Shown here in pieces: positions 4,288 to 32,905 of a stretch of 64,000 nucleotides of DNA; positions within the stretch are counted from its first letter, which is position 1, and every line of letters begins with the position of its first letter. The DNA is taken from NCBI RefSeq assembly GCF_009914755.1, contig NC_060925.1; one strand, written 5' to 3'. The notes beneath the pieces are model-generated. The model was not told the DNA's origin. It was given only the letters and a program-made list of their open reading frames with translations, and searched no databases. Made by a program: the position numbers and the translations under genes. This DNA is from the human T2T-CHM13v2.0 reference genome, Homo sapiens.

Positions 4288-5043
<756 letters not shown>

Positions 5044-5358
5044 AGGTGAATACAGATACAATAGCAATAGTATATACATTTAACAGCTTGAACTATTGAA
5101 TATACTAGAAAAAGGTTTTTATATGCATCATTTTATTTTAAAAATAAAATACTCAGAAGTAAGCAAAATGATAATAAAAAAAATCCCTGAAGAGTGCAAA
5201 ATAAAAATCTCAAAACGAGCTGAGATACTCTAATCAAATATAAAAGGTCAACTTGGTGAGTACTGTGTGAATTTTAGAAGATGTGATTAGGAAGTTTGTT
5301 CATTAGGAATATATACATTTTGCACCTTTCTTCCCCATGCAATTTGGTTTAGGTAAAC

Positions 5359-5944
5359 TGTGGAAAGAGAGTTTCTGGGGTGCCAGTTGAGTTGGTCTCC
5401 CCTGTGTGAGACACCCATGGGGAGCCATGGGCGGCCTCTGAGGAGAAAAGTCTCCTTATTGCCTTCATGCCTTTATGCCCCGAGAGCATAACTGCTCAGC
5501 GGCATGCCACAGGTTGCTCAGGGAGATAACACTCCCTTGAAGCAGTGGAGTATAATCAAACATCTTGGCTCCTCCTGAAACCCACTCCCACCCATTTCAG
5601 TCTGGATAAGTTAAAGATCTTAAGTAGTTTAGACATACACCTTTGCTCAAGGAAATTCACAGAAACTGCCACTGCTATACATCTTATTGAATGACTCACG
5701 AGTTCTCCTTCACTGATTAATCCTTTTCCTCATTCCCTCCTCGCCCTCCCATCTGCCCTAAGAACGAAGAGCTTGTAAACCAATAAACTGGGCGGAGCCC
5801 GAGAGCTCTGGGCCTTCAGCAAGCCTCAGCTGCTCCCATCCCCTGGACTCACCTTTTAAAGCTTATTCTGTCTCTTTCTAACTCCTTTGTCTCTGCCGGA
5901 CTCCGGGTACCCTCTGGGTGGTGTGGGGCTGGTTTCCCCCAACA
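5359..5944 (+). mobile_element. Solo ERVK-class LTR (LTR14-like)
   Basis: TG...CA ends, 586 bp, internal AATAAA, 6-bp TSD GTAAAC (5353-5358, 5945-5950) typical of ERVK; subfamily from memory. Confidence 0.85.
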
Positions 5945-6157
5945 GTAAACAAGATGAGTCTTCTTGGAAGAAGAAACTGAGTTTAACCCTGAATACTTGA
6001 CCTACAAGGCTTGGTTGCTGGGCTAATTCATAGTGAAGAGGATCACGCTATTCAACGTACAGACACAGGTGAGTGAGGAGAAGAAAATTAATGAAATCTA
6101 CCTCATTCTCCACAGGAGGAACCTGGGTTTACTTCTTAAGGGGACCTGATTTGTTAG

Positions 6158-7120
6158 GTGTATAAGTTTCCTATTGCTATTGTAACAAGTTACCACAAAC
6201 TTTGCAGCTTAAAACAACACAAATTCATTATCTCACAGTACCCTTAGGTGAGAAGTCTGGCAACTTTGGCTAGGTTTCTGCTTAGAATCTCACAAGGCCA
6301 AAATCAAGATGTTAGCAGGCCTGCGTTTTCTTTAGAGGTCCTAGGGGAGAATCCATATCCTTGTTCATTCAGGTTATTGGTGGAATTCCATTTAAGGTCA
6401 TTGTAGCACTAATGATTCATTTGTGTCTTGTCTGTCAGTTGAGAGGCATTACCCGTTTTTAGAGGCTTCCCACATGCCTTGGTGCACGGCCTTCATCCTC
6501 CAACTTCAGAACCAGCAATGGTGGGTGACGTCTCTCACAGGCTTCCAATCCCTCTTCTGTCTCTTGATTCCACTGCATATCTCTGACCACTATTCTCCCT
6601 TCTTCTTCTACTGTTAAGAAATCCCATGGGGGCTGGGCACAGTGGTTCACGTTTGTAATCCCAGCACTTTGAGAGGCCAAAGTGGAAGGCTCACTTGAGC
6701 CCAGGAGCTCGAGATCAGCCTGGGCAACAAGATGAGACCCCCATCTCTACAAAAAATCAAAAAATTAGTTGGGCATGGTGGTGCATGCCTGTAGTCCCAG
6801 CTACTTGGGTAGCTGAGGTGGGAGGATTGCTGGAGGCCAGGAACATCAAGGCTGCAGTGAGCCATGTTCACGCCACTGCACTCCAGCCTGGGTGATAGAG
6901 TGAGACCATGTCTCAAAAAAACAAACAAACAAAAAAAAAAAAGAAAGAAAAAGGAATCTCATGATTTTGCATTGGGCCTACCCAAGACAGTCCAGAATAA
7001 TCTCCGTGTCTTAAAGTCAGCTGATTAGTAATGTTAATTACATCTGTCATGTCCCTGTTGTCAAGAAACGTAACATATTCACAAAATCCAGGGCATAAGG
7101 AACCATTATTCAGCCCACAA
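6158..7120 (-). mobile_element. MLT1 MaLR LTR interrupted by an Alu
   Basis: tgtataagtttcctattgctattgtaacaagttaccacaaac...cttaaaacaacacaaattcattatctcacagt signature. Confidence 0.8.
6630..6952 (+). mobile_element. Alu (J-like)
   Basis: Full-length Alu inside MLT1. Confidence 0.93.
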
Positions 7121-7528
7121 AATTAGGGATATGATCAAAGGAAGAAATATTAATAAAATTAAAACAAAATGCTGAAACAAATATCAGGGACAATCAGAAG
7201 AGAAAACAAAAAGGTAGTTCATGGTCAGCTCCAGGAAATCACATGTCTGCTGCACTGCCAAGGCTCTGTGGCAGTCTTGACTTCTCTGCCAACTTCTAAA
7301 CTATGTTTCCTGGGCTCTTGGTGGGAGTCTAGCCCCTGAGAAATCTCAAGAGGAAGGAGATTGTAATCAACTGGCCACTTCTAGCTCCAGCCACAGCACA
7401 ACTGTGGTTATTGTTTATGTCCAGCATATCTGATAACACCAGCATTAGGGCTCTCTGATCTACTGCCAGAGTGAGCGGGGGTGTCAACAAGAGATGCTTT
7501 TGTACACGTTTTCCTTCCGGACTTACAA

Positions 7529-7780
7529 GAAACATAATTTCACACACTAAACCTGTTTTATCCTCTTATCATGAACAGTTGTCTGGAGGAGTTGTTGGCT
7601 CTCTCCCTGAAGGCTCTTAGAAGAAAGCAGATTAATATCACTACCTAGTTTATTGATTTTGTATCTCTTGCCCTCATAATACCAAAAGAAAGAAAGCCAG
7701 AAAGCATCAGGGTAAATGAAACCAAAAGTGTAACTGACCTTTACCTACTTTTTGCTGCAGCTCAGTATCTTGACCATGTT
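7529..7780 (+). pseudogene. Decayed paralogous SLAMF6-like IgV exon (upstream copy)
   Basis: From 7562 reads PLIMNSCLEELLALSLKALRRKQINITT*FIDFVSLALIIPKERKPESIRV, colinear with exon 2 (TAG at 7646-7648 in the conserved Trp position); the preceding intron 7350-7528 aligns with 31378-31556; acceptor AG mutated. Confidence 0.75.
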
Positions 7781-8543
7781 AAAGGGCCCAGAGTATGTTA
7801 TTGTCCTCCAGAGCATTCTTCCATTTCTCTGTTAGGGGCTTCAGAGTGTAAGGATGCAAGTGACATCACTGATGGCAAGGTGGGGACGTTTCTCACAAGA
7901 CCTTGGGGACTGGATATCTCTTATTAGAGGTGATCACTGACATGGACATTGGCCCAGAATGCTTTCTGGAAAGACTTCTTGTTCCCTCCTTGTATTCGTT
8001 TCCTGGGGCAGAGTCCCAGAAGCCAGGAGGTTTATTGTCTTACAGAGGTTGAAGTCTGCAACCAAGGTACCAGCAGGATAGTGCCCTCCAGAAATTCATG
8101 TCCTACCCCAAACCTCAGAATGTGATCTTATGTAGAACTGTGGTCATGGCAAATGAACTTAATTAGGCTCTAAGATTTAGAAGAGGAAGAAAGAGGTGGA
8201 AGAAGGGGACTAGGTTGCTAGATTCTTGAGAAGAGCCCGTCTAAACAAGAACTGTAGAAATGAACCCTACCCCTCAGAGCAATGCCAGAGCAGAGAAATA
8301 ATGTACCTTGATGACCAGAACTCACCAACAGATCCCAGCTGATGTAATTAGTTATAATTGGCTGAACAAACTCAGATGATCTGTTTCTTTTTCCAGAGGC
8401 TAAGATTTCTCAGAGTCTGGGATTAGAAGAGTCTGAGATCTTTGCTGTTTTTTCTCCCCTTCATCCGTAAGTCTTCTTCTCTTGGGATGTTCTAAAGAGG
8501 ACCCTGTTTTCTCTTTTCATTTTTTCAAAAAACTATTGCTTCC

Positions 8544-8813
8544 AGCAGCTAAAAAAGCCTCAAGGTACACTGGAATCCACTATCTCTGAGAACAGTGCCT
8601 GTTATGCCATGTTCTAACATGTTCCTTGAAGGGAGGAGGTGAAATCATACTTACAGGTGGACCCCAATGGACCAGGGGATGCTGTGTCCTAGGATGGATC
8701 CACTCACAGTGACTCCTTAGGCTCTGCAACCTGGACCAGACTTACATCTAGACAGCCTTAAATCCTATGAGCAATAGCATCTCCTGCCATCCCTGCTGGG
8801 CAGCCTTGTGCAG
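8544..8813 (+). pseudogene. Decayed paralogous IgC2 exon (upstream copy)
   Basis: QLKKPQGTLESTISENSACYAM...YRWTPM..PGDAVS*...TALNPMSNS...QPCA, colinear with exon 3, with frameshifts and stops; donor GT changed to AT at 8814. Confidence 0.8.
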
Positions 8814-8891
8814 ATAACTGACCTTCATGGCCTCTATAGGACCCCTGGGATATTCTGAGAAGATCTGGGGAGTGCTGAAAAAAGGATGCCA

Positions 8892-9198
<307 letters not shown>

Positions 9199-10230
9199 TC
9201 ATGGGCTAGTGCTTGGATGGATTTGAAATTCAGGTTCACATAAGCTGGGTACTCAAAGGCAAAAAAAAGCAGAACAGACTCAGCAAGACTTCAGATTCCT
9301 TATAATCAGCCACACAGACTCAAAAACAATTATGCTTAAATAAGAGACACCTTTGGAAATCTCTTCAAGAAACAGGAGAATTAATACTGTTAAAATGTCC
9401 ATACTACCCAAAGTGACCCACAGATTCAATACAATCCCCATCAAAATTCCAATGACATTTTTAACAAAAATGGAAAAAATAATCTTAAAGTTTGTATGGA
9501 ACTATAAATAAACCCAAGTAGTCAAAGCAATCACGAACAAAAAGGACAAAACTGGAGGCATTATACTATCAGACTTCAGAATGTACTACAAAGCTATATT
9601 AATCAAAACAGCATGATACTGGCATAAAAACAGACACATAGGCCAAAGGAACAGATAAAAAGCCCAGAAACAAATTCATGCATTTACAATTAACTGATTT
9701 TTGACAAGGTGCCAAAACACACAATGAAGAAAGGAAAGTCCCTTCAATAAAAGGCATTGGGAAAATTGGATATCCACATACAGAAAAATGAAATTAGACC
9801 CTTACCTCACACTATATTCAAATATCAACATGAAGTACATTCAGAACTGAAATGTGAGATGTGAAGCTGCAAAACCACTAGAAGAAAACATAGAGGAAAT
9901 GTTCCATGACATTGGTCTGGGCAAAGATTTATTGAATATTCCCCCAAAGCATAGGCACTAAAGGCAAAAATAGACAAATAGGATTGCGTCAAACCAAAAA
10001 GCTCCCGCACAACCAAGGAAACAATCAACAGAGTGAAGAGATAACCTATAAAGTGGGAAGAAATATTTGCAAAGCATACATCTGATAAAGGATTAATATC
10101 CAAAGTGTATGAGGAAGTTAAACTACTCAATCGTAAGAAACAAATAACCTGAGTAAAAATGGACAAAGGATCTCAATAAACAGTTCCTAAAAGAAGGCAT
10201 ACAAACGACCAACAAATATAAGAAAAAATA

Positions 10231-10579
<349 letters not shown>

Positions 10580-30650: not shown

Positions 30651-30699
30651 ATGAAACCTCTTGCTCAGCTTCTCCTCTTTCTCCTCCAGTTTCAGAAAG
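30651..30699 (+). CDS. Exon 1: signal peptide MKPLAQLLLFLLQFQK(G)
   Basis: tcctGCCACCATG Kozak context; 49-nt hydrophobic leader; donor AAG|GTGAGT at 30699/30700; joins exon 2 in phase 1. Confidence 0.85.
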
Positions 30700-31556
30700 G
30701 TGAGTGAGTCAGAGGCTCCTTCCTTGACCTCCCAGGGGGTAGGAAGTCTACACAGGCACAGCCCAGCCAGATATTTTCAGAACTGAGACCTCATATTAGG
30801 GAGATTGGGGGACAAGAAGATAGAAGACATTGAGAGACTCTTGGACATGGGAAAGACTGACTAGGGAGTGAATGAGGGCAAGGAGGAAAAGGAAAAGAGA
30901 AAAATCTAAGGTACATAGAATAATGACATTGTGAAAGTCAGAGTTGAAAGCATTCTGAAAAGCTCTGCATTTTATCTCCCTTGTTTTAAAAAAGAAGAGA
31001 AAAGGACTGGAAGAATCAACAGGCTTCCCCAAAGCTGCACATCTCAATAGAGGCAGGATCAGGACTAAGAAGCAGGTGTCCTGTATGTCATCTGAGATCT
31101 TTATATCACATACCATTGAGATACCAGAACTGCAGTGACAGTGAAACTCCAGTTCTGTGGGGCAGAAACATTTCAGAAAATAGGAAGTTGTGAGAGTTGA
31201 AATCTCAAACTGAATAAAAAAGAGGGACCAGCCAGGGCAAGGCTGGCTTCTGACTTCCCCAGTGGTCTCCATTCTGGTCTTCCAGGGCCAGTAGCTCTCA
31301 GGGGAACACAACCCCAGAGACAGGGATGAGTGATCCTAGCTGGAAGGATCCCTGGGGTGATCACTGGAGATCCCAGCAGGAAGGAGAGTTTAAGCATTGC
31401 CCACTTTGAGCTCCAGCCACAACACCACTGCTAATACCTGTTTATGTCCAACATTCTTGTGGGCCCCAACATAGGGGAGCTATGACTGACTGGGAGACTT
31501 GTGGGGAGGGACAATTGTCAGGGACATTTTGTAGCCTTTTCCTTCTGTGTTCACAG

Positions 31557-31889
31557 GGAATCTAGTTTCACAAAGCAGCTCAACCCCATTGATGGTGAAT
31601 GGGGTTCTGGGGGAGTCAGTAACTCTTCCCCTGGAGTTTCCTGCAGGAGAGAGGATCCAGTTCATCACTTGGCTTTGCAATGGAACATCTTTTGCCTTCC
31701 TAGAACCCTATGAAGGCAAAAGTCCAAAAATCTACGTGACTCATCCGAAATGGCAAAAGCGACTGAGCTTCACCCAGTCCTACTCCCCGCAGCTCAGCAA
31801 CCTGGAGATGGAAAACATAGGCTTTTACAGTGCCCAGATAGCCACAGAGACCTCTGCAAAGCTGTCCAGTTACACTCTGAGGATATTCA
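31557..31889 (+). CDS. Exon 2: SLAMF6-like IgV domain (GNLVSQSSSTPLMVNGVLGESVTLPLEFPAGERIQFITWL...AKLSSYTLRIF)
   Basis: Acceptor ccttttccttctgtgttcacAG; 333 nt, fully open (ORF 31547-31897); donor TCA|GTGAGT at 31889/31890; lacks the canonical Ig disulfide, as CD2/SLAM V domains do. Confidence 0.93.
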
Positions 31890-32305
31890 GTGAGTAAGGG
31901 CATAGAGGACCAGGTCCCTACTGGTAAGGGTGAGTGGGCTACCCACTAAGCCTGGGGGGCTGTATGACCCTTGGTAAAGGCGGTCTCCCAGTTTCACTCT
32001 TTTTGTCCGTCCAGAACCTTTCCTAGGTAGATTCTTTTTTCTTCTCTCTCCTTATTCTTTTTTGTCCTTCTTCAGTCTGGCAGCCCCTGGCTGTGGTTGT
32101 GGCTGGCTGAAAAACATACAACTTACCCCTTCCTTTATGCCGGTGCTCAGGAGTTGGAAATGAAAGAGTCAGAGATCTTTGCATTAAAGGGGTCTGGATT
32201 TCTTGCTGAGTTCTTACTCCTTGATGATCTGAGTCTTCTCCTAGCATGACCTGGAAAGGTCCTTAATTGCTATTTGTGTCTTTTAAAATTACTGTTTCAA
32301 AACAG

Positions 32306-32578
32306 AGCAGCTGCCAAGGCCTCAAGTTAGAGTGGATTCTATCATCTCTGAAAATGGGATCTGTAATGCCATCTTGAGGTGTTCTGTGGAGGAAGGAGGA
32401 GAGACCATCACATATGAGTGGACATCAATGGGACCAGGGGCTGCTGTGTCCCACGTGGGGTCAGTCCTCTATGGCTCCTGAAGCCTTCATGACCTGGATT
32501 GGATCTACACTTGCACAGCTCTGAATCCTGTTAGCTACAGCAACTCTACTCTTACCCTTGCTGCACAGCTTTGTGCAA
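32306..32578 (+). pseudogene. Exon 3: CD2/SLAM-type IgC2 domain with in-frame TGA at 32479-32481
   Basis: Acceptor tttcaaaacAG; translation KQLPRPQVRVDSIISENGICNAILRCSVEEGGETITYEWTSMGPGAAVSHVGSVLYGS*SLHDLDWIYTCTALNPVSYSNSTLTLAAQLCA shows the four family cysteines and the YTCxAxNPVS motif; donor CAA|GTAAGA at 32578/32579. Confidence 0.9.
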
Positions 32579-32591
32579 GTAAGAGTCCCCT

Positions 32592-32659
32592 TCTGGTCTC
32601 TCTAGCACCCCTTGGAAATGTTTTGTCTGGTCTCTGTAGCACCCCTAGGAAATGTTTTG
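32592..32659. repeat. 34-bp tandem duplication in intron 3
   Basis: tctggtctctctagcaccccttggaaatgttttg twice, 2 mismatches. Confidence 0.9.
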
Positions 32660-32756
32660 GGGTGAGGGCACAGCAGCCCTTGTCACCTGCCAACAACCCT
32701 CATTCGACTTACACACATGTGCTCTGTCCTCTCTCATTCTACTTTCTCTCTTTCAG

Positions 32757-32905
32757 GTTCCAAGGCAGCTGAAGGCACCTATTGCCCAGTGAAATGGATT
32801 TTCCTGGGGAACAGGCTTCTTCTCCTTGTGTTCCTTGGTGTCCTACAAACTTGGCATATTCAGGCACAGGTGCTCAGCAAACCCTTGAGGCCTAACTCAG
32901 GGTAA
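32757..32905 (+). CDS. Exon 4: stalk, transmembrane segment and short tyrosine-free cytoplasmic tail
   Basis: Long pyrimidine tract ending tttcAG at 32756; SSKAAEGTYCPVKWIFLGNRLLLLVFLGVLQTWHIQAQVLSKPLRPNSG*; in frame with exon 3 and with exon 2. Confidence 0.8.

What the first reader, a model, noticed from the sequence alone, without database searches (positions are those of the whole stretch)
7350..8860. Hidden second SLAM-like gene fossil not visible in the ORF track
Seen: 7350-7780 aligns with intron 1/exon 2 (e.g. ccacttctagctccagccacagcac vs ccactttgagctccagccacaacac; tgtttatgtcca in both) and 8410-8860 aligns with intron 2/exon 3/intron 3 (atggaccaggggatgctgtgtcc vs atgggaccaggggctgctgtgtcc). 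It has multiple stops, frameshifts and lost splice sites, so it died far earlier than the downstream copy. It may well be unannotated.
Basis: seen in the sequence. Interest (0 to 1): 0.7.

Follow-up and report, generated by a model that had tools for sequence, protein, structure and literature searches.

The report
Fossil twin of lost SLAM receptor
This is a broken, unannotated copy of an immune-receptor gene that likely died before humans and rhinoceroses split, and its better-preserved neighbour SLAMF6P1 is the remains of a separate receptor, intact in several other mammals, that shares its binding-domain exon with SLAMF6 and likely acted as its activating partner.

Summary
Observation confirmed and extended. 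Window 7340-8001 and 8325-8853 align with SLAMF6P1 intron 1 to intron 3 at 62% and 67%; each of six exon or intron blocks beats 500 of 500 shuffles. The copy keeps IgV and IgC2 exon remnants with stops, frameshifts and lost splice sites; no leader exon was found and a transmembrane exon is inconclusive. A rhinoceros gene model matches it, including residues in the shifted frame (12 of 15, against at most 4 for SLAMF6P1), so it was probably dead before the human-rhino split. No intact orthologue was found. The larger result is next door: SLAMF6P1 is a four-exon, 267-codon gene with one stop, intact in New World monkeys, strepsirrhines, colugo, tree shrew, rhinos and camel. Only its IgV exon is SLAMF6-like (90% nt); IgV trees mix the two genes by lineage while IgC2 trees separate them, which indicates recurrent gene conversion. 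A transmembrane lysine is kept in 14 of 14 orthologues with that exon and lost in human. A paired activating receptor is inferred, not tested. The fossil alone is ordinary; the locus story is of moderate interest.

The parts
7340..7528 (+). Fossil: 3' part of intron 1; acceptor reads AA
   Evidence: 67% over 186 aligned bases to 31367-31556; 0 of 500 shuffles reach the score
7529..7846 (+). Fossil: IgV exon remnant, SLAMF6-type, with stop at 7646 and 8 indels
   Evidence: 60% nt to SLAMF6P1 exon 2, 62% to SLAMF6 V exon; local score 8205 against the SLAMF6 locus, at most 2097 against the other V-exon loci; family HMM iE 0.0013
7847..8001 (+). Fossil: 5' part of intron 2
   Evidence: 61% over 154 bases; 0 of 500 shuffles
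8060..8180 (.). Dispersed repeat fragment inside fossil intron 2, absent from SLAMF6P1 intron 2; resembles an MLT1-type LTR (name recalled, not tested)
   Evidence: 38 of 40 scored genome matches fall on this stretch, 74-89% identity
8325..8542 (+). Fossil: 3' part of intron 2
   Evidence: 63.5% over 203 bases; 0 of 500 shuffles
8543..8811 (+). Fossil: IgC2 exon remnant; +2 at about 8613, -1 at about 8649, 8669, 8722, -2 at about 8780; stops 8690, 8749; donor reads AT
   Evidence: 69.5% nt; 45 of 82 readable codons identical to SLAMF6P1; lesions
8812..8875 (+). Fossil: start of intron 3, ending just before an Alu
   Evidence: aligns to SLAMF6P1 up to 8853 and to rhino model P0042 up to 8875
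9215..9350 (+). Possible decayed transmembrane exon (inconclusive)
   Evidence: 0 of 2000 shuffles with ends chosen after the fact, but rank 108 of 1774 tiles in an unbiased scan and no HMM hit
30651..30699 (+). SLAMF6P1 leader exon, outside the RefSeq span
   Evidence: 82-88% aa to New World monkey proteins; GT donor and phase in the sequence
31557..31889 (+). SLAMF6P1 IgV exon, open; high-identity tract with SLAMF6 about 31536-31893
   Evidence: 89.8% nt to SLAMF6 V exon, flanks 55-61%; alignment; Pfam V-set E 1e-4, below cutoff
32306..32578 (+). SLAMF6P1 IgC2 exon, one TGA at 32479 in place of a conserved Trp
   Evidence: 83% aa to Sapajus P0025, 28% to SLAMF6
32757..32905 (+). SLAMF6P1 transmembrane and short tail exon; conserved Lys reads Asn at 32810
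   Evidence: single copy in the genome among 31 scored candidates

Best explanation
The stretch 7340-8853 is a broken duplicate of the IgV and IgC2 exons and introns of the neighbouring SLAMF6P1 gene, likely made by tandem duplication on the placental stem and likely dead before the human-rhinoceros split. Shown: homology through introns, disablements, and a rhino gene model that groups with it and reads the same shifted frame. Inferred: the date of duplication, and that it has no protein function today. The sister gene survived: shown to be a four-exon leader/V/C2/transmembrane gene with intact protein models in several primates, colugo, tree shrew, rhinos and camel, with a V exon that groups with SLAMF6 by lineage and a conserved transmembrane lysine. 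Inferred: repeated gene conversion with SLAMF6 (2.16 Mb away, opposite strand) kept the binding domains alike, and the lysine couples it to an ITAM adaptor, as an activating partner of SLAMF6. Because the fossil already joins a SLAMF6-type V exon to this C2 exon, the pairing likely predates the fossil's death.
For: Intron homology. Rhino model P0042 residues 199-288: 61 identities in 111 columns to the fossil against 44 to SLAMF6P1; 12 of 15 in the shifted frame against at most 4; score 169 against the shifted frame, next best 86, of 212 proteins; fossil plus rhino clade 98/97 and 99/97 using in-frame residues only, and fossil plus sister-gene clade 98/94. Pooled intron K2P distance 0.50. Sister gene: 267-aa models; camel model P0068 fused to UHMK1/Kist supports synteny. 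V tree needs 9 label changes, C2 tree 1 with 100/99; AU test rejects V monophyly of either gene (p 2.5e-4 and 4e-37). Lys in 14 of 14 orthologues with the exon.
Against: The date of death rests on one computed gene model whose exon order is jumbled; rhino DNA could not be fetched. The second shared shift (about 8780) differs by one codon and has a 1 in 3 chance of agreeing by accident. Monophyly of the live gene against the fossil is weak (78/15, 83/74). The fossil V branch is too long to place (1.52). No leader or certain transmembrane exon, so a whole-gene duplication is not shown. Adaptor binding, expression and ligand were not tested; the SLAMF9-position gene has a similar lysine exon and its signalling route is described as unclear (PMC7078004, passages).
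Confidence: 0.8

Rival explanations
1. The fossil stayed a working gene in some placental lineages and died independently in primates and rhinos.
For: C2 exon is somewhat closer to SLAMF6P1 (K2P 0.41) than the introns are (0.50), which fits a period of selection after duplication. Gene models miss many intact genes, and 50% clustering could hide an orthologue.
Against: Same shifted frame at the same place in human and rhino; search with the rhino segment returned only itself, 1 of 68 candidates; only 2 of the proteins scored were nearer the fossil than SLAMF6P1, and both were nearer other family members.
Confidence: 0.12
2. It was a partial, dead-on-arrival duplication of the V-C2 segment and never a gene.
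For: No leader exon or upstream intron 1 match above shuffles; no HMM hit for leader or transmembrane exon in about 90 kb apart from SLAMF6P1 itself.
Against: Both ends abut repeat insertions, so loss is as likely as absence; a colinear but unproven exon 4 trace lies at 9215-9350. This variant is compatible with the best explanation and overlaps it.
Confidence: 0.35
3. The stretch was kept as regulatory DNA, for example for the head-to-head SH2D1B (EAT-2) promoter about 9 kb away.
For: A RefSeq enhancer lies at 5532-6731 (supplied table); the stretch is still recognisable in rhino.
Against: The enhancer does not overlap the fossil; private lesions (the +2 at 8613 is absent from the rhino model) fit neutral decay; no Rfam match in 5000-10500.
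Confidence: 0.05
4. SLAMF6P1 is simply a decayed duplicate of SLAMF6, as its name implies, and the sister gene is a non-signalling ligand or decoy rather than an activating receptor.
For: V exon 75% aa to SLAMF6; short tail without tyrosine motif allows a pure ligand role, as proposed for SLAMF9 (PMC7078004, passages).
Against: The duplicate reading fails: C2 is 28% to SLAMF6 and forms its own clade, leader and transmembrane exons have no SLAMF6 counterpart. The decoy reading is not excluded, but does not explain the invariant lysine.
Confidence: 0.3

Closest known systems
Duplicated (unprocessed) pseudogenes
   Same: Retains introns, lies in tandem with a paralogue, carries stops and frameshifts (definition as in PMC7116059, passage).
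   Different: Very old and unannotated; invisible to Pfam and to a genome search with the intact orthologue.
SLAMF6 (NTB-A)
   Same: V exon of both window copies is SLAMF6-type.
   Different: C2, transmembrane and tail exons are of another lineage; no long tyrosine-motif tail.
SLAMF9 (locus named from recalled gene order)
   Same: Leader/V/C2/transmembrane plan, short tail, similar lysine-containing transmembrane exon.
   Different: Its V and C2 are only 39-40% identical to SLAMF6P1; different locus.
Paired receptors kept alike by gene conversion (CEACAM1/CEACAM3; Siglec-5/Siglec-14)
   Same: Similarity confined to the N-terminal domain exon, lineage-wise clustering, inverted orientation (PMC2832619, passages; the Siglec case seen only as a reference title there).
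   Different: Here the partner has a transmembrane lysine and no ITAM-like tail; I found no description for SLAMF6; function untested.
Amphibian CD2/SLAM members with charged transmembrane segments
   Same: Shows SLAM receptors with a charged transmembrane residue exist (PMC4536121, passages).
   Different: Those carry an NxxR motif; the mammalian gene has GKG.

Membership tests
Duplicated pseudogene (fossil) | Homology includes introns | tested here: met
   four intron blocks, each 0 of 500 shuffles
Duplicated pseudogene (fossil) | Coding disablements | tested here: met
   stops, frameshifts, splice-site losses
Duplicated pseudogene (fossil) | No functional transcript or protein | not testable with these tools
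   no expression data available
SLAM/CD2 family (fossil) | IgV exon followed by IgC2 exon | tested here: met
   family HMM iE 0.0013 and 1.1e-5; no Ig hit in Pfam for 3 of 3 single frames
SLAM/CD2 family (fossil) | Leader and transmembrane exons | tested here: inconclusive
   leader not found; exon 4 candidate rank 108 of 1774
Unitary pseudogene (SLAMF6P1) | Intact orthologues elsewhere, no intact copy in this genome | tested here: met
Unitary pseudogene (SLAMF6P1) | Conserved synteny of the orthologues | tested here: inconclusive
   only the camel model fused to UHMK1 and the rhino model joining both copies; no mammalian genomes besides human could be read
Paired activating receptor (sister gene) | Ligand-binding domain kept alike to a signalling partner by conversion | tested here: met
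Paired activating receptor (sister gene) | Charged transmembrane residue and short motif-free tail | tested here: met
   Lys in 14 of 14 aligned orthologues with the exon; Asn in human
Paired activating receptor (sister gene) | Assembly with an ITAM adaptor and activating signal | not testable with these tools
   needs co-expression assays
Paired activating receptor (sister gene) | Shared ligand and overlapping expression with SLAMF6 | not testable with these tools
   needs binding and expression data

The most novel reading that the evidence does not exclude
The locus beside EAT-2 holds an unnamed tenth SLAM receptor family: an adaptor-coupled activating partner of SLAMF6 whose binding domain has been re-synchronised with SLAMF6 by long-range gene conversion since before the boreoeutherian radiation, driven by pathogens that bind or mimic SLAMF6. 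One copy died on the placental stem (this fossil), the other in the lineage to humans, where it is misfiled as a SLAMF6 pseudogene.
Probability: 0.45. Interest if true: 0.72.

Novelty: new member of a known kind. Interest (0 to 1): 0.5.

Why it matters
The fossil itself only adds an unannotated pseudogene, but it gives a minimum age for the SLAMF6-type V plus distinct C2 architecture. The neighbour matters more: reviews count nine SLAM genes in human and mouse (PMC4718992, PMC7078004, passages), yet other mammals carry an intact further member that mirrors the SLAMF6 binding domain. If it is an activating partner, it is a testable case of an immune receptor lost on the way to humans, it bears on anti-SLAMF6 reagents tested in New World monkeys, and it warns that V-domain trees of 'SLAMF6-like' genes can mix two genes.

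Tried and rejected
Searches for leader, upstream intron 1, exon 4 and 3' homology in the window gave nothing clearly above shuffles; the exon 4 candidate looked significant only with ends chosen after the fact. No third copy in the window or 26 kb of flanks. Unnamed protein P0081 looked like an intact ape orthologue but is 186 of 187 identical to this window read with TGA as Trp straight through an intron, so it was rejected as evidence. Pfam found no Ig domain in three fossil frames; Rfam found nothing. A genome DNA search with 8200-8890 returned only itself, so that tool is too blunt for this divergence. No structure or complex prediction was run. Ten literature searches found no description of the fossil or of conversion between SLAMF6 and this gene; the two papers naming SLAMF6P1 were seen only as listings of cancer expression studies.

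Full report
1. Observation. The claimed similarity is real. Two colinear blocks align on the + strand: 7340-8001 with 31367-32060 (405 of 652 aligned bases) and 8325-8853 with 32077-32619 (343 of 512), with scores 7 times the best of 100 shuffles. Split into three intron parts, two exons and the start of intron 3, each of the six blocks exceeds all 500 shuffles. The gap between the blocks holds a dispersed repeat fragment (38 of 40 scored genome matches). The V exon has a stop and 8 indels, the C2 exon two stops (one replacing the second cysteine) and five internal frameshifting indels; three of four splice sites are changed at the homologous position. No leader exon was found; a transmembrane exon candidate behind the Alu is inconclusive.

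2. What the downstream copy is. RefSeq lists SLAMF6P1 as 31542-31912 only. The sequence holds four exons with GT-AG ends and matching phases (30651-30699, 31557-31889, 32306-32578, 32757-32905), 267 codons with one internal stop at 32479. Protein searches returned models of 264-281 residues with the same plan, mostly named 'SLAM family member 6-like', from Sapajus, Cebus, Aotus, Saguinus, Microcebus, Otolemur, Tupaia and Diceros, plus longer, shorter or partial ones from colugo, Prolemur, white rhino, horse and camel (52 of 287 candidates; 22 of 79; sequences). No ape or Old World monkey model of this gene appeared in either list, nor a named rodent, carnivore, afrotherian or xenarthran one; these searches are word-limited, so absence is weak. 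A wild camel model fuses this gene to UHMK1, the next gene in human. So SLAMF6P1 behaves as a unitary pseudogene of its own gene.

3. Gene conversion with SLAMF6. The V exon is 89.8% identical to the SLAMF6 V exon, 2.16 Mb away on the opposite strand, while flanking introns give 55-61% in forced global alignments, close to the shuffle level of 54 plus or minus 4%. The C2 exon is 28% identical to SLAMF6 at protein level and 43% to the first C2 at the LY9 position (names of loci other than SLAMF6 and CD84 come from recalled gene order). In a tree of 37 V domains the two genes are interleaved (9 label changes; mouse lemur copies are sisters at 100/99; New World monkey copies group together), while in a tree of 41 C2 domains each gene is one clade at 100/99. 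AU tests on a 28-row subset reject V monophyly of either gene (LG+G4). I used 32 of the 69 proteins then held, one isoform per species. Between human SLAMF6P1 and SLAMF6 V exons there are 32 nonsynonymous and 2 synonymous differences (dN 0.139, dS 0.026; Fisher p 0.009), which suggests diversifying selection after the last conversion; a preprint lists SLAMF6 among positively selected proteins (10.64898/2026.09.21.753075, one passage). The transmembrane segment keeps GKG in 14 of 14 aligned orthologues that have the exon (15 aligned, one lacks it); two horse models left out of that alignment read VKK; human reads GNR.

4. Age of the fossil. Rhinoceros model P0042, a jumbled prediction, ends in 90 residues that match the fossil C2 exon and intron 3 better than SLAMF6P1 (61 against 44 identities in 111 columns). 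It runs without a gap from the correct frame into the shifted frame at the same point as the human fossil, removing the core tryptophan: 12 of 15 residues match the human shifted frame against at most 4 for any SLAMF6P1 frame. A second shift near 8780 agrees in register but differs by a codon. A +2 insertion near 8613 is human-side only. With shifted residues masked, human and rhino fossils still group at 98/97 and 99/97, as sister to or within the base of the live gene's clade. Pooled intron distance to SLAMF6P1 is 0.50 substitutions per site; against recalled neutral branch lengths of about 0.16 from human to the boreoeutherian ancestor, this puts the duplication on the placental stem (inference). 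No intact orthologue emerged from a search with the rhino segment (1 of 68 candidates, itself) or among the best 150 of 413 profile hits.

5. Mechanism. Shown: duplication with introns, decay, shared lesion with one rhino model, exon-limited similarity to SLAMF6, conserved lysine. Inferred: birth and death in a small tandem array next to SH2D1B; conversion maintaining a SLAMF6-like binding face; adaptor coupling through the lysine (established for other activating receptors; PMC4536121, passage). The fossil's V exon is SLAMF6-type (score 8205 against at most 2097 for other V loci), so the architecture predates its death. A squirrel monkey cytomegalovirus gene derived from SLAMF6 (10.1101/2025.04.10.648282, passages) shows the kind of pressure that could favour a partner, but no link was tested.

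6. Known kinds and novelty. The fossil is an ordinary duplicated pseudogene. The neighbour works like CEACAM1/CEACAM3-type paired receptors in its conversion pattern (PMC2832619, passages); membership as an activating receptor is untested. Ten searches found no account of either point, but the library lacks most subscription journals, no supplements were read, and gene-loss or pseudogene catalogues in supplements could list the locus. Papers were seen as search listings and keyword passages only, none whole.

7. Verdict. Interest 0.3 for the fossil alone, 0.5 with the lost paired-receptor candidate it led to.

Noticed in passing
L026/L028, G000:C1:159913028-159914248 minus strand: Another broken SLAM-like unit (C2, V with stops, C2) between the SLAMF7 and LY9 positions; unnamed proteins P0109, P0185 and P0153 resemble its C2 exons in open form. 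Possibly a second SLAM gene lost in humans; annotation not checked.
   Followed up: partly
window 30651-32905: RefSeq span of SLAMF6P1 covers only the converted V exon; three further exons lie outside it.
   Followed up: yes
window 31559-31888: Besides the C2 stop, the human V exon carries changes at conserved positions (Leu to Pro and Asp to Asn relative to SLAMF6).
   Followed up: partly
window 5365-7120: LTR-like and Alu repeats under and beside the RefSeq enhancer 5532-6731, read by eye only; they sit where the fossil's leader exon would be expected.
   Followed up: no
P0039, P0044, P0053, P0069 (Diceros); P0060, P0063 (Tupaia): Rhino and tree shrew have several models of the sister gene, suggesting lineage-specific expansion.
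   Followed up: no
P0091, P0118, P0071, P0104, P0174: Unnamed distant SLAM proteins carry a similar lysine-containing transmembrane exon with non-SLAMF6 V domains, so this exon type is older than the SLAMF6 pairing.
   Followed up: partly
window 32600-32660: Short tandem duplication of about 35 bases in SLAMF6P1 intron 3, seen in the sequence.
   Followed up: no
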